64,000 nt of DNA, taken from Gammaproteobacteria bacterium. GTDB lineage: Bacteria > Pseudomonadota > Gammaproteobacteria > Ga0077536. The DNA lies in NCBI GenBank assembly GCA_050184115.1, contig JBFXAQ010000013.1, positions 44,674 to 108,673 of the forward strand, given 5' to 3'. This document shows positions 11,017-35,603 of the stretch, piece by piece. The position numbers and the translations under genes are program-made. The notes beneath the pieces are model-generated. The model saw nothing but the letters and a program-made list of their open reading frames with translations, was not told where the DNA came from and made no database searches. Each line of letters starts with the position of its first letter. Position 1 is the stretch's first letter.

Positions 11017-11682
11017 TCAACCCGTCTCGATGAGGTAGCCGACGCCGCGCAGGGTGCGGATGTTGAGGCCGTGCGCGCCGAGCCGCCGGCGCAGGCGGTG
11101 GATGTAGACCTCGACGGCGTTGTCGCCGATATCGTCGTTGCTCGCCGTCAGGCGCTGCGCGATGCGCGCCTTGGTGACGACCTTGTTGGCGTTCACGGCG
11201 AGGACTTCCAGCACCTCGAATTCGCGCACCGGCAGGTCGAGCAGCACGCCGTCGACGCGGACCTCGCGCGAGAACGGGTTGATGCTCACCACGCCGAGGC
11301 GAAGTTCGTCATCGAAGTCCATCTGGCTGCGGCGGAGCAGGGCGCGCACGCGCGCTTCGAGTTCGCGCAGGTCGAAGGGCTTCTCGAGGTAGTCGTCGGC
11401 ACCCGCGTCCAGTGCCGCGACGCGGTGCTCGACGCCGTCGCGCGCGGTGAGGATCAGCACCGGCAGGGCAAGGCGCCGGCGCCGCAGGTAGCGCAGGATG
11501 TCGAGACCGTCCTCGTCCGGGAGGCCGAGATCGAGGATGACGAGGTCGTAGTCGCCACCGTCGAGTGCGGCGCGTGCCCAGGCACCATCGGGTGCGTGTT
11601 CGACGGCGTAACCCGCTTGCTCGAGCGCGCGCACGAGGCCGGTACCGAGCAGCTTGTCGTCTTCGACGACGAGGATGTTCAT
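11017..11682 (-). CDS. OmpR-family response regulator (receiver plus winged-helix DNA-binding domain)
   Basis: MNILVVEDD...DLVILDLGLPDEDGL...LILTARD...DDYLEKPF receiver, followed by the trans_reg_C domain. Sits 7 nt upstream of the kinase gene. Confidence 0.9.
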   Translation of the reverse strand: MNILVVEDDKLLGTGLVRALEQAGYAVEHAPDGAWARAALDGGDYDLVILDLGLPDEDGLDILRYLRRRRLALPVLILTARDGVEHRVAALDAGADDYLEKPFDLRELEARVRALLRRSQMDFDDELRLGVVSINPFSREVRVDGVLLDLPVREFEVLEVLAVNANKVVTKARIAQRLTASNDDIGDNAVEVYIHRLRRRLGAHGLNIRTLRGVGYLIETG

Positions 11683-11716: not shown

Positions 11717-11851
11717 GCAGGCGGAAAGGGGACGGAAAAGGGACAGCAGACAAGGGGACAGATCTATTTTTCTTTATTAAAAAAAAATAAATCTGTCCCC
11801 TTTGCTGTTCCCGTCCCTTTCCGCCTCGCCGTTCTTCCTGCTCCGTTGCCT
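11717..11851. repeat. Long imperfect palindrome with an AT-rich centre, in the divergent regulator/sulP promoter region
   Basis: gcaggcggaaaggggacggaaaagggacagcagacaaggggacagatctattttt CTTTATTAAAAAAAAATAAA tctgtcccctttgctgttcccgtccctttccgcctcgccgttcttcctgc. Inner perfect arms GGGGACAGAT(c/t)TATTTTT lie at 11764-11781 and 11793-11810. Confidence 0.55.
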
Positions 11852-11991
11852 GCGGCGCGCCAGCTTAGCGCATCGTTCCTTGTAAGGTGCGCGTAAGCCA
11901 GGCGAAAGGCAGTCGTAAGCGCGGCCGGTCTACTCTGCCCTCCCGCGCCAGTGGCGCCACACGTTCCAAGCCGAACGGGAGCGAGACCGAC

Positions 11992-13572
11992 ATGTCCAGC
12001 CTGCGCCATCTCAAGCACGACCTGCCCGCGAGCCTCGTGGTGTTCTTCGTCGCCCTGCCGTTGTGTCTCGGCATCGCGCTCGCCTCGGGCGCGCCCCTGT
12101 TCTCGGGGCTCATCGCCGGCGTCATCGGCGGCATCGTGGTCGGCGCCCTGAGCCGTTCGCCGCTCGGTGTGTCGGGACCGGCGGCCGGGCTCGCCGTGAT
12201 CGTGCTGACGGCGATCGAATCCCTCGGCACTTTCGAAGCCTTCCTGCTCGCGGTCGTCCTCGGCGGCCTGCTGCAAATCGCGCTCGGCGCGCTGCGCGCC
12301 GGCGTCCTCGGCTACTTCTTCCCGGCCGCGGTCATCCAGGGCATGTTGTGCGGCATCGGCCTCATCATCGTCCTCAAGCAGATCCCGCACGCGCTCGGCT
12401 ACGACGCCGACCCCACCGGCGACATGGCCTACCAGCAGCCGGACGGCGGCACCACGTTCTCGGCCCTGTCGGACATGCTCGGTTACGTCGACCTGTCGGT
12501 GGTGATGGTGGCGGCGGTGTCCTTCGCCATCCTGCTGCTGTGGGAGCGCGTGCTGGTCAAGCGCCATCGCATCTTCCAGCTCCTGCCGGGACCCTTGGTG
12601 GCGGTGGCGTTCGGCATCACTTGGCAGTTCGTCACCAGCCGCTGGTCGGGCAACCTCGCCCTGTCGCCCGAACACCTGGTGTTCGTGCCGCTCGCGGGCA
12701 GTCTCGACGAGTTCGCCTCGTTGTTCGTGCTGCCGGATTTCAGCCAGTTGACCAACCCCGCGATCTGGACCGTCGCAGTGACCATCGCCGTGGTGGCGAG
12801 CCTGGAGACCCTGCTCTGCGTGGAAGCCACGGACAAGATGGACCCGCGCAAGCGCACCACGCCGACCAACCGCGAGCTGGTCGCGCAGGGTGTCGGCAAC
12901 ACCCTGTCCGGGCTCATCGGCGGACTGCCCATCACCCAGGTCATCGTGCGCAGCTCGGCCAACATCCATGCGGGCGCACGCACGCGGGCCTCGGCCATTG
13001 TTCACGGCGTGCTCCTCCTGGTGTGCGTGGCGACCCTGCCCCACGTGCTCAACCTGATCCCGCTCGGCGTGCTCGCCGCGGTGCTCATCCTCACCGGCTA
13101 CAAGCTGGCCCGGCCGGCCTTGTTCCGCGCCATGTGGCAGCACGGCTTCGAGCAGTTCCTGCCGTTCGTCGTCACCGTCGCCGGGGTCGTGCTGACCGAT
13201 CTCCTGACCGGCGTCGCGCTCGGCATCGCCGTCGCCGTTACCATGACCTTGCAGCGCAGCTACCGTAACTCGCACTTCCTGCACATCGAGACGCGCGACC
13301 CCGACGTCAACCGTCACCTCGTCACCATGCGCCTGGCCGAGGAAGTGACCTTCCTCAACAAGGGCGCGATCAAACAGGAGCTCGCCAACCTGCCGGCCGG
13401 TACGCGGCTGGTCATCGACCAGAGCAACTGCGTCTACATCAACCACGACGTGCGCGAGATCATCGACGACTTCGTCAAGGTCGCGCCGACGCGCAATATC
13501 ACGGTCAGCATCGTCGAGCAGGCGCCGTCGATGCGGGGCCTGGGCGTGCGCGATCTGCGAGTCGCGGCGTGA
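11992..13572 (+). CDS. SulP-family inorganic anion transporter with C-terminal STAS domain
   Basis: Sulfate-transporter signature region in TM helices (PLGVSGPAAG..., QGVGN), then a C-terminal STAS domain (HLVTMRLAEEVTFLNKGAIKQEL). Start at MSSLRHLK after GGGAG. Confidence 0.9.
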   Translation: MSSLRHLKHDLPASLVVFFVALPLCLGIALASGAPLFSGLIAGVIGGIVVGALSRSPLGVSGPAAGLAVIVLTAIESLGTFEAFLLAVVLGGLLQIALGALRAGVLGYFFPAAVIQGMLCGIGLIIVLKQIPHALGYDADPTGDMAYQQPDGGTTFSALSDMLGYVDLSVVMVAAVSFAILLLWERVLVKRHRIFQLLPGPLVAVAFGITWQFVTSRWSGNLALSPEHLVFVPLAGSLDEFASLFVLPDFSQLTNPAIWTVAVTIAVVASLETLLCVEATDKMDPRKRTTPTNRELVAQGVGNTLSGLIGGLPITQVIVRSSANIHAGARTRASAIVHGVLLLVCVATLPHVLNLIPLGVLAAVLILTGYKLARPALFRAMWQHGFEQFLPFVVTVAGVVLTDLLTGVALGIAVAVTMTLQRSYRNSHFLHIETRDPDVNRHLVTMRLAEEVTFLNKGAIKQELANLPAGTRLVIDQSNCVYINHDVREIIDDFVKVAPTRNITVSIVEQAPSMRGLGVRDLRVAA

Positions 13573-28608: not shown

Positions 28609-28763
28609 GGGCTGTCCCGCAATCAACTTGCAATTCTCGCTGGTCCTTTTGCCGCGATACGTCGTTGCTCGTCGCTCACACGCCGAGCATGTCATCCGCT
28701 CCTCGCGCCTTGTTTCGCGACAAAGGTCCTGCGCGATTTATCGAACTTGATTGCGGGACAGCA
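28609..28763. repeat. About 155-bp element bounded by perfect 16-bp terminal inverted repeats GCTGTCCCGCAATCAA / TTGATTGCGGGACAGC (repeat family C, copy 1)
   Basis: TIRs at 28612-28627 and 28746-28761. The internal sequence is about 75 % identical to the element at 62879-63022. Confidence 0.6.
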
Positions 28764-28880
28764 CACAAGCGCGCGGAACGATTTCTACGGCGACGGGGTC
28801 GTGCCAACGGGCGCGGCCGCGTCGGAATTCTTGCCGGCCACACCCATCGATGGCCGGCTGCTCAAGGGGAGAACAGTGCA

Positions 28881-30707
28881 ATGAGTCAGGTCAGAAGCGA
28901 AGCCGGGGCGGTCGACGCCCTCGATCCGTCGGTGCTGGGATTCGATCCGGCGGAGGTTCGCCGCAAGTACGCCGAGGAGCGCGAGAAGCGCCTGCGGCCG
29001 GACGCCGGCGACCAGTTCGTCGAGGTCGTCGGTGAGAACGCCCATTACGAGGACGATCCCTACGTCGAACCGGGTTTCACCCGCGCAGCCATCCACGAGG
29101 ACATCGACGTCGCCATCCTCGGCGGCGGTTTCGGCGGGCTGCTCGCCGCGGCACGGCTGAAGGAAGCCGGCGTGACGAACGTCCGCATCATCGAGAAGGC
29201 CGGCGACTTCGGCGGCACCTGGTACTGGAACCGCTACCCCGGCGCGCAATGCGACATCGAGTCCTACATCTACCTGCCGCTGCTCGACGAGACCGGCTAC
29301 GTGCCGAAGGAGAAGTATTCCTTCCAGCCGGAGATCTTCGAACATGCCCAGCGCGTCGGCCGGTTCTACGATCTCTACCCGCGCGCCTGCTTCCAGACCC
29401 AGGTGAAAGACGCCCGCTGGTCGGACGAGGACGGCCGCTGGACGGTGACGACGGATCGCGATGACGTCTTCCGCGCCCGCTTTCTCGTCATGTCGAGCGG
29501 GCCGCTCAACCGGCCGCGGCTGCCCGGCATTCCCGGGCTGAACACGTTCAAGGGCCATGCATTCCATACCAGCCGCTGGGACTACGACTACACAGGCGGC
29601 AGTTCGGACGGCGTCCTCGACAAGCTCGGCGACAAGCGCGTCGCCATCATCGGCACCGGCGCGACCGCGGTACAGGCGGTGCCGCGCGTGGCCAGGTCGG
29701 CGCAGAAGCTCTACGTGTTCCAACGCACGCCATCCTTTGTCGACGAGCGCTGGAACCGGCCGACCGACCCAGCGTGGGCGAAATCACTGAAACCCGGCTG
29801 GCAGGCCGAACGCAACGAGAATTTCTGCACGATCCTGGCCGGTCTGCCGGTCGACGAAGACATGGTCGCCGACAAGTGGACCGACTTCTTCCGCCTCACC
29901 TACGAGATTCTCGCCTCGCATATGGGCGAGGTGTCCGACGAGCGCATGAAGCTGATCTCCGAAGTGGCCGATTACAAGAAGGGCAACGACGTGCGCGATC
30001 GCGTTGCGCGCACGGTCAGCGATCCGCAAACGGCCGAAGCGCTCAAACCCTGGTTCGGCCAGTGGTGCAAGCGGCCGCTGTTCAACGACGAGTACCTGCC
30101 GTGCTTCAACCAGCCAAACGTCGAACTGGTCGACACCCATGGCCAGGGTGTCGAGCGCATCACCGAGAACGGCGTGGTGGTCGACGGCGTCGAGTACGAA
30201 GTCGACTGCATCGTTTTCGCCACCGGCTTCGAGGTCAGCACGGCCTACACGCGCCGTTCAGAGTGTGAGGTCTACGGCCGCGACGGCGTGACCCTGACCG
30301 ACTACTGGGCCGACGGCATGAAGACCTTCCATGGTTTCCTGAGCCAGGGCTTTCCGAACTGCTTCCACATGGGCCTCACCCAGACCGGGCTCGCCTTCAA
30401 CTTCACTTACTCGTTGGGCGGCCAGGCGCGCCACATCGCCTACCTCGTCAAGCAGGTCTTCGACCGCGATGCCAAGTCGATCGAACCGACCGCGAAGGCC
30501 GAGGCCGACTGGGTGAAGCTCGTCACCGGGCCGAGCCCGATGCGCGACTACCAGGCGACCTGCACGCCCGGTTACTACAACCAGGAGGGTAAGAACGAGG
30601 GCCAGGGCTTCCTCGACAACCTCTACCCGGAAGGCGCGGTGCCGTTCTTCAGGTTGTTGAAGGCGTGGCGCGAGCAGGGGACCCTCGACGGCATCGACCT
30701 GCGCTGA
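28881..30707 (+). CDS. Baeyer-Villiger monooxygenase with N-terminal extension (HAPMO/CPDMO-like type I BVMO)
   Basis: GGGFGG Rossmann. FKGHAFHTSRW fingerprint. GTGATA second site. Start at MSQVRSEAG after AAGGGGAGAA. Confidence 0.9.
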   Translation: MSQVRSEAGAVDALDPSVLGFDPAEVRRKYAEEREKRLRPDAGDQFVEVVGENAHYEDDPYVEPGFTRAAIHEDIDVAILGGGFGGLLAAARLKEAGVTNVRIIEKAGDFGGTWYWNRYPGAQCDIESYIYLPLLDETGYVPKEKYSFQPEIFEHAQRVGRFYDLYPRACFQTQVKDARWSDEDGRWTVTTDRDDVFRARFLVMSSGPLNRPRLPGIPGLNTFKGHAFHTSRWDYDYTGGSSDGVLDKLGDKRVAIIGTGATAVQAVPRVARSAQKLYVFQRTPSFVDERWNRPTDPAWAKSLKPGWQAERNENFCTILAGLPVDEDMVADKWTDFFRLTYEILASHMGEVSDERMKLISEVADYKKGNDVRDRVARTVSDPQTAEALKPWFGQWCKRPLFNDEYLPCFNQPNVELVDTHGQGVERITENGVVVDGVEYEVDCIVFATGFEVSTAYTRRSECEVYGRDGVTLTDYWADGMKTFHGFLSQGFPNCFHMGLTQTGLAFNFTYSLGGQARHIAYLVKQVFDRDAKSIEPTAKAEADWVKLVTGPSPMRDYQATCTPGYYNQEGKNEGQGFLDNLYPEGAVPFFRLLKAWREQGTLDGIDLR

Positions 30708-30804
30708 GACCGCGCGTGGTGCCGGGCCTGGCGTCCGGCACCGCCGTTCCCGATCGCGTTCGGTGACAGTTTCCTTTTTGCGGCCCTGATGTTCCTGCCT
30801 TTCC

Positions 30805-30861
30805 GGGACAGACCACGGTTTGCGGACCACGGCGAGGCAACGCAAACCGTGGTCCGTCCCC
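30805..30861. repeat. MITE/REP-like element, family A copy 1: GGGACAGACCACGGTTTGCG ... CGCAAACCGTGGTCCGTCCCC
   Basis: 20-bp terminal inverted repeats (1 mismatch) with a 16-bp spacer. Lies between the BVMO and the benE-like gene. Confidence 0.6.
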
Positions 30862-30905
30862 GAATGAGAAGCTGTCCGTCACCGATTCTCCGATAAGCTT
30901 CCCGC

Positions 30906-32132
30906 ATGAGCCTCGAACGTCCCTCGGCGCCGCCGCCGGGTCTCCATGACATCGTCGCCGCTGCCGATCGGCACATCCTCGCCAATGCCCTGGTCGGTTT
31001 CCTGTTCGCGGCGACGGGGCCACTGGCCATCCTCATCGCCATCGGTACCGGCGGGGGACTCACCAGCGACGACATCGCGAGCTGGGTGTTCGGCTCCTAT
31101 GGCCTCACCGGGGTCATCACCATCGCGCTGAGCTGGTTGTGGCGCATGCCGCTGCCCATCGCCTGGACCATTCCCGGTGCCGTCCTGCTGATCCCCGCCT
31201 TCGGTCACCTGGGCTTCGCCGAGATCGTTGGCGCCACCCTGGTCTCCGGCGTGTTGATGACGGTGCTGGGGATCACCGGCTGGGTCGGTTGGCTCATGGC
31301 GCGTATCCCGATGCCCGTCGTCATGGGCATGGTGGCCGGGGTGTTCCTGCCGTTCGGCCTCGGCATCATCAAGGCATTCGAGGCCGAACCCGTGGTCGCC
31401 ACGGTTACCACGGTGGTATTCGTCGCACTGGCACGGGTCGCGCGCCTCGGACGCATCGTCCCGCCCGTGCTCGGCGCGCTGGCGGCAGGGTTCGTGCTGA
31501 TCTGGGCGACCGGTCGCTTCGAGGTCGGCGCGCTGGCCGGGGAGGTGTTGGTGAGGCCGCACTTCTACACTCCCCAATTCACACTGGAAGCGCTGATCGA
31601 GCTGGTTGTGCCGCTCGCGCTCACCGTGATCACCATCCAGAACGCGCAGGGCATTTCGATCCTGCGCATGGCGGGCTTTCCGCCGCCCACCAACCTACTA
31701 ACCGTCGCGTGTGGCCTCGGTACGTTGGCCGTGGGTGTCGTCGGCTCGGTACCGGCCTGTGTCACCGGCCCCTCCAACGCGATGATCAACGCCTCCGGAG
31801 CGCGCGACGATCGCTACGTGGGCGGCATGGCCTTCGGTGCGCTCATGCTGATGCTGGGGCTGTTCTCGCCGCTCGCGATCAGCTTCGCCCTTGCCCTGCC
31901 CAAGGCCTTCGTCGCGCTGCTCGGTGGGCTCGCCATGCTCCGCGTACTCGAATCCGCCTTCCTCGCAGCCTTCGGCGGCGGCTTCAGCTTTGGCGCGCTG
32001 GTGGCCTTCCTGGTGACCGTGGCCGATATCACCCTCTTCAACGTCGGCGCCGCTTTCTGGGGCCTGGTGTTCGGGTTTGCCACGGCCTGGGTGTTCGAGC
32101 GCAAGGACTTCGCGGTACCACGTTCACCGTAG
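30906..32132 (+). CDS. BenE-family (benzoate/H+ symporter-like) membrane transporter
   Basis: About 12 TM segments and family-typical glycine-rich helices. 408 aa. Confidence 0.75.
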   Translation: MSLERPSAPPPGLHDIVAAADRHILANALVGFLFAATGPLAILIAIGTGGGLTSDDIASWVFGSYGLTGVITIALSWLWRMPLPIAWTIPGAVLLIPAFGHLGFAEIVGATLVSGVLMTVLGITGWVGWLMARIPMPVVMGMVAGVFLPFGLGIIKAFEAEPVVATVTTVVFVALARVARLGRIVPPVLGALAAGFVLIWATGRFEVGALAGEVLVRPHFYTPQFTLEALIELVVPLALTVITIQNAQGISILRMAGFPPPTNLLTVACGLGTLAVGVVGSVPACVTGPSNAMINASGARDDRYVGGMAFGALMLMLGLFSPLAISFALALPKAFVALLGGLAMLRVLESAFLAAFGGGFSFGALVAFLVTVADITLFNVGAAFWGLVFGFATAWVFERKDFAVPRSP

Positions 32133-32143
32133 CCCCGTTCAAC

Positions 32144-33469
32144 TCATGCCATGTGAACCTGGCACCTCGAACCACGATGCCGGCCTCGAGCCAGCCTGCT
32201 CACCGGCCACATCGCCGACCCGAGCAGTGCCAGCGAAGGTGGTATGGGAACGGGTTCTGCCGTGACGGCCAGGATGCCACTGGTTGCAGTTGTCGTGAAA
32301 TCGAAATGCAGGCCCGCAATATCAGGAAACTGGATGGTGTCGAAAGCGCCCGTGATGGCTTGGGCCAACAGTATCGTGAAGACGTCGCCGGGAGCGGGCG
32401 TGTAGCCGTGGAGAAGAGAAACATCGAGAGTGCCATCGAGATTCAGGACATTCTCGACGTCGAGCACCGTGAACTCCCCGTCGTCTGCGCCGCTCAACCC
32501 GATGCGCACGGTGGCGGTCTCCAGAATGTCGAGATCTCCGGCGACATCGAACCCGCCGGTGTAATAGGTCGAGTCGCCAACCTGGAACTCTCCTGCCACG
32601 GTCACGTGACCGACCGCCGTTGCCGAGTCTCCGTGCAGGCGTGCGAACCGGTCGACGAAGATCTCGTCCGCAAGCAATTGGGCGCCGGGGCCAAGGTAGA
32701 TATTGTGAAACGCGAAGTCGTCCAGGGGTTGGTTGGACTCGAATCGAAACAGCGTTCCCGCGTCGAGTAATGAGGCGGGCTCGGTGACACGGATTTCGAC
32801 GAAGCGATCCGCGTCCGCGTTGACGACCAAGGCCGGGACGCTCATCTGTCCACCGTAGCTGATCGAAAGCGAATCGTTGCTCAGGTTGAATTGCCCGGAG
32901 CCACTGAACTGACCGTCATAGTCGATGTTCAGGAAAAGGCTGCTATCCATCGAGCCGTCGTTGACGATCGTGCCGTAGGTCAGACGGATAGCCGAGTCGT
33001 TGTCGATCGTTCCGCTGTTGGTGAGTGCGCGGTCGCCGGAAATTAGGACGTATCCCGGTGGGTGAAAGATCAACTCGCCGGCGTTCTCCAGGTGGCCGGA
33101 GTCGATCACGACGTTTCCGTAGTTGTCGACCAAACCATGATTTACCAGGGTTTGCCCAGACCGGATCTTGATGGCACCGTGATTGGTCAACGTACCTTGG
33201 TTGATGACGCGCCCGTTCCGTATCGTGAGCTCGCCGTGAGTATTGATTCCGTCATTGAGGATGGTGACGGTGTCGGCGGCCGAAATCGTCCAGTTGGTGT
33301 CGATGAAAGTCGGTTGATCGATGACGAAGTCCGTCGCGATGGCGGTATGCGTTACAAGCAGCGCAACGCTCGTGACGGCGGATGGCCACCACGCCGGGCG
33401 CTCGTGTCGGCGCGGCCTAGCAGTATCGCGAAGAGCTTTGGACGACGTAATGCCGGTCCGCTGGCGCAT
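32144..33469 (-). CDS. Secreted repeat protein with a PEP-CTERM sorting signal
   Basis: N-terminal signal. Body of degenerate beta-helix-like repeats (INTHGEL / INQGTL / VNHGLV / IDNDSA ...). C-terminus ...TAEPVPIPPSLALLGSAMWPVSRLARGRHRG = P-x-P, hydrophobic helix, Arg-rich tail, a divergent VPIP variant of the PEP motif. Confidence 0.55.
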   Translation of the reverse strand: MRQRTGITSSKALRDTARPRRHERPAWWPSAVTSVALLVTHTAIATDFVIDQPTFIDTNWTISAADTVTILNDGINTHGELTIRNGRVINQGTLTNHGAIKIRSGQTLVNHGLVDNYGNVVIDSGHLENAGELIFHPPGYVLISGDRALTNSGTIDNDSAIRLTYGTIVNDGSMDSSLFLNIDYDGQFSGSGQFNLSNDSLSISYGGQMSVPALVVNADADRFVEIRVTEPASLLDAGTLFRFESNQPLDDFAFHNIYLGPGAQLLADEIFVDRFARLHGDSATAVGHVTVAGEFQVGDSTYYTGGFDVAGDLDILETATVRIGLSGADDGEFTVLDVENVLNLDGTLDVSLLHGYTPAPGDVFTILLAQAITGAFDTIQFPDIAGLHFDFTTTATSGILAVTAEPVPIPPSLALLGSAMWPVSRLARGRHRGSRCQVHMA

Positions 33470-33629
33470 CGGTCATTCCACGAATGTGAGGCGGGGCACC
33501 AATCGTATACCGGCGATCGCGCCAGTGGGAATCCGTGTGCGCCGTCGAAACAGCGTATGACCGCAGACTAACAGCCGCTATTCGAGCGGGAGGGGCTGCC
33601 AGGCGGCCGGGTCCGTTTGCGCAATTTGA

Positions 33630-33750
33630 GGACAGACCACGGTTTGCGTAGCAGCGGCATAGCCGGCGAACGAGGGGGGGAGGCCGCTTTACTGAACCGT
33701 CGGCTGGCAAACGGATGAGCCGGCGTGTCGCTAAATCGTGGTCTGTCCCC
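33630..33750. repeat. MITE/REP-like element, family A copy 2: GGACAGACCACGGTTTGCG ... GCTAAATCGTGGTCTGTCCCC
   Basis: 19-21-bp terminal inverted repeats flanking about 80 bp. Lies between the PEP-CTERM gene start and the cupin gene end. Confidence 0.6.
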
Positions 33751-33768
33751 GAATAAATTCCGCAGGCG

Positions 33769-34254
33769 CTATTTCTCGAGGTACTGATCGAACGCCGCGT
33801 CGAAATGACTGCCGTCACCGAGCGGCTGCGCGCGTATGACCACTCCCAGCATGACGGCCGGTTCGTCGCCGATGGCCGACCAGCTGTGCATGACGCCGCG
33901 ATCGACAACGACGTCGCCGGCAGCGAGCTCGACCTCGCCTGCTTCGAGCGCGAGCCGCACCCGACCGGTCAGCACGACCACGTAGTCGAGCGTATCGGTC
34001 TGGTGCCAGGCCGGCGGCGTACCGGGTTGCTGCGTGAACAGCACGCAGAAACTCGACTTCTTGAAGGTGTCGAGGGTGAGGGGCGTGGCGGCTTCGGCAT
34101 TGCCGGCGTTGCTGGGCGGATAGTCGTCGCTCTGCCAGACGATCGCGGGATCGCCGCCACAGGCTGCGATCTGCTCGAGCGCGGCATCGGAAATCACGCA
34201 CGATTTCCCGTTGTCGTCGAGGCCGGTGACTACCCGGCGATTCTTGAAGGTCAT
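33769..34254 (-). CDS. Cupin-domain protein
   Basis: Conserved cupin barrel region (WHQTDTLDYVVVLTGRVRLALEAGEVELAAGDVVVDRGVMHSW). Start at MTFKNRRVV with a GGAGA RBS. Confidence 0.65.
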   Translation of the reverse strand: MTFKNRRVVTGLDDNGKSCVISDAALEQIAACGGDPAIVWQSDDYPPSNAGNAEAATPLTLDTFKKSSFCVLFTQQPGTPPAWHQTDTLDYVVVLTGRVRLALEAGEVELAAGDVVVDRGVMHSWSAIGDEPAVMLGVVIRAQPLGDGSHFDAAFDQYLEK

Positions 34255-34303
34255 GGGCTCATCTCCACTTGCCAATCGAGTCGGCGATACCGACGGGGAA
34301 TCC

Positions 34304-34387
34304 GCGGGAATCCGGGGACAGACCACGATTTATCCGGCCCAGGATTGACCCGGCCGGGGCCGGTGGAATCCGGGGACGAATATCGTG
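34304..34387. repeat. MITE/REP-like element, family A copy 3: GGGGACAGACCACGATTTAT ... GAATATCGTGGTCTGTCCCC
   Basis: 20-bp terminal inverted repeats (2 mismatches) flanking 44 bp. Lies inside the operon between the SDR and cupin genes. Confidence 0.6.
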
Positions 34388-34438
34388 GTCTGTCCCCGAT
34401 TAAAAGACGGGCGGACGTCGGACGCGACTGCGAACTGC

Positions 34439-35242
34439 TCAGGTATCCAACTCGATCGTCGCCAGATCGACCGCGCTGCCGCCGCCGTCGACGACCATCG
34501 TGTGGCCGGTCACCATGGCGGCATCGCTGGACGCCAGGAAGGCGCACACGGCGGCGATCTCTTCGGGCTGCGAGATGCGTCGCAGCGGGATGTGGCGGGT
34601 CGAGCGGGCCAGGGCTTCCTCGACGGTGATGCCGTCGCGCTGGGCGAGGTAGGCGATGGTGCCGTCGGCGAGCGCGGTCTTGGTCCAACCCGGGCACAGC
34701 GCATTCACGCGCACACCTTGTGGGCCGAACTCGCGCGCCAGCCAGCGCGCGAGCCCGACGATGCCGTGCTTGGCCGCGGTATAGCCGAGGCCGCCGACCG
34801 GGCCGGCGAAGAGCCCGGCGGTGGAGGCGATCAGCACCGCCGAGCCCTTGCGCTCGACCAGGTGCGGCATGGCCTCGCTGACCAGGTAGTAGGGGCCACT
34901 CAGGTTCACGTCCAGCCCGCGCAGCCACTTCTTGTCGCCGCGCGCGGTGGGTACGTCGCCGGTCACCGCGCCCTGGGTGGCGATGACGGCGTCGAGGCCG
35001 CCGTAGGTCGCGACGGTCTTGGTCACCACTTCGTTGAGCGCTTCGCGCGAAGTGCCGTCGGCGGGCAGCGCGAGGGCGCCGATGTCGTCAGCGAGCGCCG
35101 TGAGTGCCTCGGCGTTGATGTCGGTCACGGCGAGCTTGACGCCTTCGGCGGCGAAGCGGCGCGCGGTGGCCGAGCCGATGCCGCCAGCGGCGCCGCTGAC
35201 CAGGGCGACCGCGGGCATGGTGCGGCGATAGGGGTCGTTCAT
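34439..35242 (-). CDS. SDR-family oxidoreductase
   Basis: GAAGGIG, NAL, and catalytic S..Y...K (YTAAKHG). Confidence 0.85.
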   Translation of the reverse strand: MNDPYRRTMPAVALVSGAAGGIGSATARRFAAEGVKLAVTDINAEALTALADDIGALALPADGTSREALNEVVTKTVATYGGLDAVIATQGAVTGDVPTARGDKKWLRGLDVNLSGPYYLVSEAMPHLVERKGSAVLIASTAGLFAGPVGGLGYTAAKHGIVGLARWLAREFGPQGVRVNALCPGWTKTALADGTIAYLAQRDGITVEEALARSTRHIPLRRISQPEEIAAVCAFLASSDAAMVTGHTMVVDGGGSAVDLATIELDT

Positions 35243-35279
35243 GGGTTCTGCTCCAGGTGGGGCGGCGTACCGTCGGGCA

Positions 35280-35603
35280 TCAGCTCACGCGTTCGGTGAT
35301 GGCGGTGAACATCTGCATCGAGATGCTGGCGCGATCGAGGGTGTCGCTCATGTGCAGATGCGGCAGGGCGGCCTTGAGGGCGTCGAGTGCCGCGGCCGGA
35401 TCGCCTTCCACCTCGTACAGGGCGAGGTAGCCGTGCGCACCCGCGCCGCCCATCTGCGCCGGCGCGAGCGCGAAGCGTTGCGCGGCGACGAAGCCCGGCA
35501 CCGCGACGACTTCCTGGATGTGCACGTTCGAGTACCAATCGTTGAAGGCCTCTTCCTGGCCGGGGACCGGGTTCGTCAGCACCATCAATACACTCTTGCT
35601 CAT
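35280..35603 (-). CDS. EthD-family small protein (dimeric alpha+beta barrel)
   Basis: 107 aa. N-terminal MSKSVLMVLTNPVPGQEEAFNDWYSNVHIQEVVAVPGFVAAQRF matches the EthD pattern (EEF..W...H......PG...RF). RBS AGGAGA. The track ORF extends upstream without support. Confidence 0.5.
   Translation of the reverse strand: MSKSVLMVLTNPVPGQEEAFNDWYSNVHIQEVVAVPGFVAAQRFALAPAQMGGAGAHGYLALYEVEGDPAAALDALKAALPHLHMSDTLDRASISMQMFTAITERVS

What the first reader, a model, noticed from the sequence alone, without database searches (positions are those of the whole stretch)
30805..34387. Family of MITE/REP-like elements with GGGGACAGACCACG terminal inverted repeats (three copies within 3.6 kb, one variant at 11764-11810)
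Elements at 30805-30861, 33630-33750 and 34304-34387 share 19-21-bp TIRs (GGGACAGACCACG(G/A)TTT...) and differ in internal length (16, about 80 and 44 bp). Each is followed by CCCCGA(A)T(A/G)A. A hairpin at 11764-11810 has arms GGGGACAGAT(c/t)TATTTTT starting with the same 9-mer. All lie in intergenic DNA, one inside an operon. No transposase is present in the window, consistent with non-autonomous elements or a genome-specific REP family.
Basis: seen in the sequence. Interest (0 to 1): 0.55.

Follow-up and report, generated by a model that had tools for sequence, protein, structure and literature searches.

The report
TIRYT-type inverted-repeat miniature elements
The three hairpin repeats are real, transposase-less copies of the ends of a known but little-studied bacterial mobile element (a "TIRtron", moved by a RAYT-like tyrosine transposase called TIRYT), so this is an ordinary new instance of a known kind.

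Summary
The window contains exactly six copies of a ~26-nt module, AAT(C/A)GGGGACAGACCACGNTTT. They form three inverted pairs: 30798-30867, 33622-33756 and 34308-34403. Shuffled controls give none.

The module is not genome-specific. A scan of one genome per species hit its 120-stretch limit, with matches in Gamma- and Betaproteobacteria, Desulfobacterota and Acidobacteriota. In 16 of those loci the module directly flanks a 240-251 aa Y1/HUH transposase gene, always with GGGG facing outward. That protein is 63% identical to a published TIRYT (Di Nocera 2013), whose inverted repeats share GGGGWSAS. GGGGACAG fits that consensus.

The hairpin near 11.75 kb belongs to a sister repeat type, GGGGACAGATYTATTTT. 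That type flanks TIRYT genes in Pseudomonas brassicacearum and on a P. aeruginosa plasmid.

I found no target-site duplication, no terminator-like tail and no Rfam match. Orthologous metagenome loci show an empty site, a short dimer, or a 3-kb segment between the two repeats at the same junction, which indicates mobility or rearrangement at the repeats.

No TIRYT gene lies in the window, so the copies here are non-autonomous or fossil. Verdict: a new member of a known kind. The single-strand HUH mechanism is inferred, not shown.

The parts
30798..30823 (+). Left inverted-repeat (TIR) module of dimer 1, CCTTTCCGGGACAGACCACGGTTTGC. Slightly decayed: CGGG instead of GGGG.
   Evidence: Weight-matrix score 19.9. 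Arm of inverted repeat I3.
30842..30867 (-). Right TIR module of dimer 1. Reverse complement is TCATTCGGGGACGGACCACGGTTTGC, with one A>G change in the core.
   Evidence: Weight-matrix score 23.4. Hairpin of -41 to -49 kcal/mol, z about -6. Lies 39 nt upstream of the BenE ATG at 30906.
33622..33647 (+). Left TIR module of dimer 2, CAATTTGAGGACAGACCACGGTTTGC (GAGG instead of GGGG).
   Evidence: Weight-matrix score 25.8. Arm of I9.
33731..33756 (-). Right TIR module of dimer 2. Reverse complement is TTATTCGGGGACAGACCACGATTTAG. Ends 13 nt before the stop codon of the cupin gene (minus strand; stop at 33769-33771).
   Evidence: Weight-matrix score 38.1..
34308..34333 (+). Left TIR module of dimer 3, GAATCCGGGGACAGACCACGATTTAT.
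   Evidence: Weight-matrix score 38.6. Perfect 17-nt arm, I15.
34378..34403 (-). Right TIR module of dimer 3. Reverse complement is TTAATCGGGGACAGACCACGATATTC.
   Evidence: Weight-matrix score 37.6. Hairpin of -59 to -63 kcal/mol.
34295..34313 (+). Partial 'stutter' copies of the outer TIR end (GGGGAATCC GCGGGAATCC) just outside dimer 3. A further partial copy, GGAATCCGGGGAC, lies inside the dimer at 34365-34377.
   Evidence: Direct repeat D14. Similar partial outer duplications appear next to TIRs in L002, L034, L055, L080, L081, L121 and L202.
11717..11829 (.). Long palindrome whose inner arms are a sister TIR type: 11754-11772 GGGGACAGATCTATTTTTC and 11782-11800 (inverted). The loop is AT-rich and the outer arms carry partial GGGAC repeats. 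It lies between a response-regulator gene (11017-11682, minus) and a SulP permease gene (11887-13572, plus).
   Evidence: The same 17-mer, GGGGACAGATNTATTTT, flanks TIRYT genes in L008 and L202.

Best explanation
The three elements are 'TIR dimers': the two terminal inverted repeats of a TIRtron, joined by a short non-conserved spacer and lacking the transposase gene. A TIRtron is a small mobile unit made of a TIRYT gene bracketed by 24-28-bp inverted repeats that begin with GGGGWSAS. TIRYT is a RAYT-like Y1/HUH tyrosine transposase with a C-terminal extension of about 90 aa. The hairpin at 11.75 kb is the same kind of dimer from a sister TIR/TIRYT lineage.

**Proposed mechanism (inferred from homology to IS200/IS605 TnpA and to E. 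coli TnpA-REP, PDB 4ER8).** On single-stranded DNA the two inverted modules snap back into a hairpin with GGGG/CCCC at its foot. A TIRYT supplied in trans recognises the conserved module. It cuts and rejoins single strands through a 5'-phosphotyrosine intermediate. This moves or copies the dimer without making a target-site duplication.

**Status in this window.** There is no TIRYT gene here, and two of the three dimers carry arm mutations. The copies are therefore non-autonomous. They may be fossil if the rest of the genome also lacks a cognate TIRYT.

**What is shown:** the sequence family, its polarity, its physical association with TIRYT genes, the absence of a duplication, and presence/absence differences between related genomes.

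**What is inferred:** the catalysis, the single-stranded intermediate, and current activity in this genome.
For: 1. Six modules in three +/- pairs, none in controls.
2. The 18-mer GGGGACAGACCACGNTTT hit the 120-stretch limit in one-genome-per-species contigs across Gamma- and Betaproteobacteria, Desulfobacterota and Acidobacteriota. By my own estimate from collection size, about 70 chance matches would be expected in the whole collection.
3. Conservation is confined to about 24-26 nt, AAT(C/A)GGGGACAGACCACGNTTT.
4. Polarity is strict. Among neighbouring exact-core pairs within 300 nt, 54 are GGGG-outward and 0 are the reverse. With the weight matrix, 70 versus 2.
5. ORF clustering found a 240-251 aa protein in 16 loci at a median of 14 nt from the motif. 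It matches Pfam Y1_Tnp at 49-52 bits (cut-off 23) and NCBIfam REP_Tyr_transpos at 69-77 bits. Its only PDB hit is TnpA-REP 4ER8.
6. The HUH motif and the catalytic Tyr are invariant in the alignment.
7. Gene anatomy: 1-4 direct modules upstream of the gene and an inverted module right after the stop codon.
8. The protein is 63% identical (E = 1e-111) to the published TIRYT 'pfs 148A'. The variant-type protein is 65% identical to 'tkm 1558'.
9. The published TIR consensus GGGGWSAS fits GGGGACAG (PMC3733652, PMC6006769).
10. There is no target-site duplication above a random control.
11. Orthologous loci differ at one junction: L170 is empty, L192 and L185 carry a short dimer, and L166 has 3 kb between the two repeats. 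Tandem module number also differs between two tubeworm symbionts.
Against: - No TIRYT gene lies in the 64-kb window, and the rest of the genome could not be examined. Mobilisation in this organism is therefore unproven.
- No TIRYT has, to my knowledge, been tested biochemically. The papers I read propose such assays rather than report them.
- The transposase scores just under NCBIfam's RAYT equivalog cut-off of 80 bits.
- The expected C-terminal helix-turn-helix was not detected by Pfam.
- All six modules cluster within 3.6 kb rather than being dispersed over the window. A purely random transposition model does not explain this.
- The polymorphic junction in L166/L170/L185/L192 is complex and comes from metagenome contigs. 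Deletion or assembly effects cannot be fully excluded.
Confidence: 0.85

Rival explanations
1. The hairpins act mainly at the RNA level, as terminators, attenuators or mRNA-stabilising stem-loops between co-directional genes. They would be kept for that host function rather than being transposon remnants.
For: The predicted hairpins are very stable: -41 to -66 kcal/mol, z from -3.6 to -6.7. All three lie between co-directional genes. REPs are reported to have such secondary roles (background of PMC3733652).
Against: - No terminator-like site was found in 30000-35500; shuffles gave a mean of 3.1.
- There is no U-tract after any stem.
- For dimers 1 and 2 the better-folding strand is the one opposite to the flanking genes.
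- No Rfam family matches.
- The spacer is not conserved, and the module also occurs singly and in direct arrays.
- RNA function does not explain why the module flanks TIRYT genes.
Confidence: 0.07
2. They are classical MITEs: deletion derivatives of an insertion sequence with a DDE transposase, for example Tn3-family miniature elements whose repeats also begin with GGGG.
For: The elements have terminal inverted repeats of about 24 bp with GGGG outward, variable internal length and no coding capacity. That Tn3-family repeats also start with GGGG is my own knowledge.
Against: - Flanks of 51 dimers show no target-site duplication beyond a random control.
- Among 120 loci, the only recurrent gene bracketed by the motif is a Y1/HUH transposase. 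The next-largest cluster was ABC-transporter-like by its sequence, at a median of 358 nt, and is not a transposase.
- The repeat is 24-28 bp, not the 38 bp of Tn3-family ends (Tn3 length from my own knowledge).
Confidence: 0.03
3. They are operator sites for a local transcription factor controlling the FMO/BenE/cupin/SDR gene cluster.
For: All six sites cluster within 3.6 kb of functionally plausible aromatic-compound genes, and none occurs in the other 60 kb. They are palindromic.
Against: - The identical 18-mer occurs in at least 120 loci of unrelated gene context across phyla.
- Half-site spacing ranges from 7 to 117 nt.
- The motif brackets a transposase gene.
Confidence: 0.02

Closest known systems
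TIRtrons / TIRYT-associated TIR repeat families (Di Nocera, De Gregorio & Rocco 2013, PMC3733652). Probably TnpA-REP subclass 2.1 of Quentin et al. 2018, PMC6006769.
   Same: - The inverted repeats start with GGGGWSAS.
- They bracket a RAYT-like Y1/HUH transposase that has a long C-terminal extension.
- The repeats also occur away from the gene as singles, dimers and groups.
- The proteins are 63-65% identical to listed TIRYTs.
   Different: - Only the gene-less dimers are present in this window.
- The breadth I saw, one exact 18-mer in at least 120 loci from several phyla, is wider than the 'moderately abundant families in some microorganisms' described.
- Pfam did not detect the helix-turn-helix reported for subclass 2.1.
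REP / REPIN-RAYT systems (Nunvar 2010; Bertels & Rainey 2011; Bertels 2017)
   Same: - Inverted doublets form hairpins.
- They are non-autonomous and associated with a Y1/HUH transposase that they flank.
- They occur as singlets, doublets and clusters.
- There is no target duplication.
   Different: - The unit has no GTAG/CGTC tag and is not demonstrably self-palindromic.
- The doublet spacer is highly variable, 7-117 nt.
- The transposase falls below the RAYT equivalog cut-off.
- The repeat sequence is shared across phyla rather than being lineage-specific.
- Bertels' 'Group 1' RAYTs (wide distribution, on plasmids, about 12 copies of flanking 16-mers) probably correspond to this family. That is inference only.
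IS200/IS605 family (TnpA Y1 transposase; IS608, ISDra2)
   Same: They share the catalytic fold and motifs (Pfam Y1_Tnp; HUH and Tyr invariant). They are expected to share single-strand cut-and-join chemistry without target duplication.
   Different: IS200/IS605 ends are different subterminal hairpins, not terminal inverted repeats. The NCBIfam IS200 model matches only weakly (E about 1e-4; 20-22 bits against a cut-off of 55).
Bacterial MITEs such as Correia/NEMIS, ERIC and RUP
   Same: They are short and non-coding, with inverted-repeat ends, an intergenic location and strong hairpin potential.
   Different: Those are thought to be moved by DDE transposases and make target duplications (my own knowledge). 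Here there is no duplication and the partner enzyme is a tyrosine HUH transposase.

Membership tests
TIRYT-associated TIR repeats (TIRtron family, Di Nocera 2013) | The repeat carries the GGGGWSAS motif at its outer end. | tested here: met
   GGGGACAG fits GGGG[AT][CG]A[CG]. It is present in all six modules, three of them with one substitution. Consensus taken.
TIRYT-associated TIR repeats (TIRtron family, Di Nocera 2013) | The same repeats flank, in inverted orientation, a gene for a tyrosine (Y1/HUH) transposase homologous to published TIRYTs. | tested here: met
   Met in other genomes: 16 loci. Pfam Y1_Tnp match. 63% identity to TIRYT 'pfs 148A', and 65% for the variant type to 'tkm 1558'.
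TIRYT-associated TIR repeats (TIRtron family, Di Nocera 2013) | A cognate TIRYT gene is present in the same genome. | not testable with these tools
   None in the 64-kb window.
TIRYT-associated TIR repeats (TIRtron family, Di Nocera 2013) | Repeats occur away from the gene as singles, dimers or groups. | tested here: met
   58 dimers, 85 singles and about 30 direct or mixed arrays in 120 loci. Three dimers in the window.
TnpA-REP subclass 2.1 (Quentin 2018) | Long protein with a conserved C-terminal extension resembling a helix-turn-helix (Bac_DnaA_C, HTH_23 or HTH_28). | tested here: inconclusive
   A conserved C-terminal region of about 90 aa is present, with the pattern IRxATNGN..LG..F...I...GRRV..G..GRP. 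No Pfam helix-turn-helix family matched at E <= 1.
Canonical REP / REPIN-RAYT | The REP unit is a 20-40 nt imperfect palindrome tagged by GTAG (or CGTC). | tested here: not met
   There is no GTAG or CGTC in the conserved module. Outer A-run / inner T-run pairing is possible but shows no covariation (mutual information <= 0.09).
Canonical REP / REPIN-RAYT | The associated transposase passes the RAYT equivalog model (NCBIfam NF047646, cut-off 80 bits). | tested here: not met
   69-77 bits. It is the best-matching model but falls below the cut-off.
Canonical REP / REPIN-RAYT | Inverted doublets able to form a hairpin. | tested here: met
DDE-type MITE | Target-site duplication flanking the inverted repeats. 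| tested here: not met
   35 of 51 dimers have none. The length distribution equals that of the random control.
Intrinsic (Rho-independent) terminator | GC-rich stem followed by a U-tract. | tested here: not met
   0 sites in 30000-35500; shuffles gave a mean of 3.1. Sequence.

The most novel reading that the evidence does not exclude
The most novel reading not excluded has three parts.

1. This TIR type is a single, horizontally spreading family. Its 24-nt recognition module has stayed letter-perfect across at least four phyla while its transposase diverged to 53-59% identity.
2. Its inverted repeats can bracket and move host cargo. In L166 a 3-kb segment that includes a cytochrome b561-like gene sits between two repeats, where relatives have a dimer of about 50-nt spacer.
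3. The repeats can remodel gene starts. In L192 and L185 the BenE start codon appears to lie inside the dimer.

On that reading, the tight cluster of three dimers around BenE, the 441-aa ORF and the cupin gene in this window would mark TIRYT-mediated shuffling of these genes.
Probability: 0.12. Interest if true: 0.55.

Novelty: new member of a known kind. Interest (0 to 1): 0.25.

Why it matters
The finding mainly serves as correct annotation. These hairpins should be labelled as TIRYT-type inverted-repeat elements, not as regulatory sites, terminators or a novel repeat class.

TIRYT/TIRtron systems are a poorly studied branch of the HUH tyrosine-transposase world. The papers read here report no biochemical test of any TIRYT.

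- One exact 18-mer is shared by well over a hundred species.
- The polarity is strict, with GGGG outward.
- There is no target duplication.
- Tandem modules lie upstream of the transposase gene.

For this particular window, none of that changes the biology of the neighbouring genes in any demonstrated way.

Tried and rejected
- **Rfam, whole window, gathering thresholds:** no match.
- **Promoter and terminator scan, 30000-35500:** nothing.
- **Empty sites for the window's own three insertions.** I fetched BenE relatives from metagenomes, but the closest is only 53% identical, so there are no orthologous intergenic regions. The same loci did yield an unrelated lineage with informative polymorphism.
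- **Extending the window.** Exact-protein look-ups for ORFs near the window ends found nothing on record. The BenE look-up returned only a 6.1-kb identical contig from Logan SRR27751815.
- **All-against-all comparison of the 120 loci.** It gave few homologous pairs. L045/L056 was too messy to interpret.
- **Literature search for the motif string:** only eukaryotic primer hits.
- **Viral contigs:** only 6 stretches, so phages are not an obvious vehicle.
- **Self-hairpin test.** I tested whether a single module is itself a small hairpin (outer A-run pairing with inner T-run). There is no covariation, so this is not supported.
- **Pfam search for a C-terminal helix-turn-helix in the transposase:** none.
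- **'Stutter' enrichment.** Counting GGGAC outside the repeats was confounded by neighbouring modules in arrays, so it remains anecdotal.
- **Considered and dismissed on anatomy alone, without a dedicated test:** CRISPR arrays, integron attC sites, Tn7/Mu-type multi-site ends and dif/Xer sites.


Full report

Yes. GGGGACAGACCACG with up to 2 mismatches occurs six times in the window, against 1.06 expected. The six sites form three inverted pairs:
- 30801-30824 / 30841-30864.
- 33624-33645 / 33733-33754.
- 34313-34329 / 34382-34398.

A 26-nt weight matrix built from instances in other genomes recovers exactly these six sites and nothing else in 64 kb. None of 20 Markov controls gave a hit. Each pair folds into a hairpin far more stable than shuffled sequence, with z from -3.6 to -6.7.

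The third element runs to about 34403. The variant hairpin core is 11754-11800, inside a palindrome of about 113 nt at 11717-11829.

All copies are intergenic:
- FMO-like (28665-30707) | BenE (30906-32132).
- 441-aa ORF (32144-33469, minus) | cupin (33769-34254, minus).
- Cupin | SDR (34439-35242, minus).
- The variant lies between a divergent response regulator and a SulP permease.

**2. What is it?**

I scanned one genome for each of 185,579 species for GGGGACAGACCACGNTTT. The scan stopped at its 120-stretch limit. Matches came from:
- Gammaproteobacteria, including Pseudomonas, Chromatiaceae, Halioglobus and tubeworm and clam symbionts.
- Betaproteobacteria, including Janthinobacterium, Noviherbaspirillum, Accumulibacter, Gallionella and Aromatoleum.
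- Desulfobacterota.
- Acidobacteriota.

By my own estimate from collection size, chance would give about 70 matches in the whole collection. The family is therefore dispersed and far from genome-specific.

I aligned 239 oriented instances. Conservation is confined to about 24-26 nt, AAT(C/A)GGGGACAGACCACGNTTT(Y), with nothing conserved beyond it.

The arrangement is strongly polar. Among neighbouring modules within 300 nt, 54 pairs have GGGG facing outward and none has the reverse order; 29 are direct repeats. With the weight matrix the counts are 70 versus 2, and the groups break down as 58 dimers, 85 singles and about 30 direct or mixed arrays. Dimer spacers range from 7 to 117 nt and are unrelated in sequence.

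**3. The partner gene**

I clustered ORFs lying near the motif. One protein of 240-251 aa recurs in 16 loci, at a median distance of 14 nt from the motif. Its matches are:
- Pfam Y1_Tnp at 49-52 bits, against a cut-off of 23.
- NCBIfam 'REP-associated tyrosine transposase' at 69-77 bits, just below the cut-off of 80.
- A single PDB match, E. coli TnpA-REP 4ER8.

The HUH motif (HVH) and the catalytic tyrosine (YRYIELNP) are invariant. A C-terminal region of about 90 aa is conserved.

The gene's anatomy is constant. One to four direct modules lie upstream, pointing toward the gene. One inverted module follows immediately after the stop codon, so the unit reads GGGG...gene...CCCC.

No such gene lies in the window.

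**4. Comparison with what is known**

Di Nocera et al. 2013 (PMC3733652) described RAYT-like genes flanked not by REPs but by terminal inverted repeats. They named the genes TIRYTs and the units TIRtrons. They noted that many of the repeats share GGGGWSAS. They also reported 'moderately abundant' repeat families occurring as singles, dimers or groups.

Quentin et al. 2018 (PMC6006769) place most TIRYTs in TnpA-REP subclass 2.1, which comprises long proteins with a C-terminal extension resembling a helix-turn-helix.

GGGGACAG fits GGGGWSAS. The L019 protein is 63% identical (E = 1e-111) to the published TIRYT 'pfs 148A'. Membership in the TIRYT family is therefore supported by both sequence and anatomy.

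The canonical REP criteria are not met:
- There is no GTAG tag.
- No covariation supports a self-palindromic unit.
- The protein scores below the RAYT equivalog cut-off.

Bertels et al. 2017 describe 'Group 1' RAYTs as widely distributed, present on plasmids and associated with about 12 flanking 16-mers per replicon. This group probably corresponds to the TIRYT family, but I could not test that.

**5. The variant at 11.75 kb**

Its arm, GGGGACAGATCTATTTT, is the inverted repeat of a sister TIRYT lineage. The same 17-mer pattern brackets TIRYT genes in P. brassicacearum (L008) and on P. aeruginosa plasmid NZ_CP116719.1 (L202). That protein is 65% identical to the published TIRYT 'tkm 1558'.

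A third type, GGGGTCAGAGCAAA, flanks a homologue that is 48% identical on an Iodobacter plasmid. Transposase lineage and repeat type therefore co-vary.

**6. Mechanism**

Shown:
- Flanks of 51 dimers carry no target-site duplication above a random control. This fits HUH/Y1 chemistry and argues against a DDE-type MITE.
- There is no terminator-like tail and no Rfam match.
- For dimers 1 and 2, the better-folding strand is opposite to the flanking genes. This gives no support for selection at the RNA level.
- Related genomes differ at the repeats. At the adenylosuccinate-lyase | BenE junction of four orthologous metagenome loci (77-89% nucleotide identity), L170 has no element. L192 and L185 have a short dimer. 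L166 has the two repeats separated by 3 kb that includes a cytochrome b561-like gene.
- Two tubeworm symbionts differ in the number of tandem modules upstream of the TIRYT gene, four versus two.

Inferred, by homology to IS200/IS605 TnpA and TnpA-REP: the inverted modules fold into a hairpin on single-stranded DNA. TIRYT, supplied in trans, cuts and rejoins at its foot through a phosphotyrosine intermediate.

Whether the window's copies are still mobile is unknown. Two of the three dimers carry arm substitutions, and no TIRYT is in view.

**7. Rivals**

- RNA-level function as the primary role: confidence 0.07.
- DDE-type MITE: confidence 0.03.
- Local operator sites: confidence 0.02.

Each fails on the evidence above. 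A secondary effect on transcripts cannot be excluded without RNA data.

**8. Verdict**

It is a new instance of a known, though sparsely studied, kind.

A few observations go modestly beyond the literature I could read:
- An exact 18-mer is shared across phyla while the transposases are only 53-59% identical to one another.
- The polarity is strict.
- Modules form tandem arrays upstream of the gene.
- Partial 'stutter' copies of the outer end recur next to the repeats.

These raise the interest a little, but not the category.

Noticed in passing
L166 5939-9069; L185 7213-8966; L192 2222-3565; L170 1444-1457 (metagenome loci fetched only for BenE homology); window 30798-34403: Four of the 80 loci retrieved purely as BenE homologues (about 50% aa identity to the window's BenE) carry the same TIR modules right beside BenE. 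Two of them have a TIRYT gene about 1 kb downstream. They are one lineage (77-89% nucleotide identity). In the window, all six modules also sit around BenE and none lies in the other 60 kb. This could be coincidence, local hopping near a TIRYT, or a real BenE association.
   Followed up: partly
L192 2262-2300; L185 5998-6040, compared with L170 239 and L166 6022: Where the dimer is present, the native TTG start and first codons of BenE (MTPPALRR...) are replaced. The only in-frame start lies inside the dimer spacer, so translation would read through the right repeat (..NRGLSP/R..). The element appears to supply a new gene start.
   Followed up: partly
L166 2945-5952: Two repeats in GGGG-outward orientation enclose about 3 kb, including a cytochrome b561-like ORF. 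Relatives have a short-spacer dimer of about 50 nt at the same place. This may be cargo between the repeats, or an insertion into a dimer.
   Followed up: partly
window 34295-34313, 34365-34377 and 11722-11753; L002 3578-3610; L034 3623-3640; L055; L080; L081; L121; L202 440-475: Partial 'stutter' duplications of the outermost 9-12 nt of the repeat (..AATNGGGGAC..) recur just outside, and sometimes inside, the full module, in both TIR types. No explanation was tested. They might be footprints of cleavage and rejoining, or extra binding half-sites.
   Followed up: no
L034 3422-3623 compared with L082 325-420: The number of tandem TIR modules upstream of the TIRYT gene differs between two closely related tubeworm endosymbionts: four in Escarpia and two in Lamellibrachia.
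   Followed up: partly
window 32144-33469 (minus strand): A 441-aa ORF with no Pfam match lies in the lowest-GC stretch of the window (0.61 against about 0.68), between BenE and dimer 2. It is called as a gene on the identical Logan contig, L001.
   Followed up: no
L170 1420-1800: After BenE and a TIR module, this contig continues with about 125 nt matching the TIR and upstream leader of the TIRYT gene in L166 (up to about its start codon). A 270-nt duplicate of the BenE 3' end follows. This is either a TIR-associated rearrangement or a metagenome assembly chimera.
   Followed up: no
L106 (MAG labelled Streptomycetaceae) and L061 (MAG labelled Enterobacteriaceae): Perfect TIR dimers occur on contigs binned to taxa far from the other hosts. 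This may be mis-binning or genuine wider spread.
   Followed up: no
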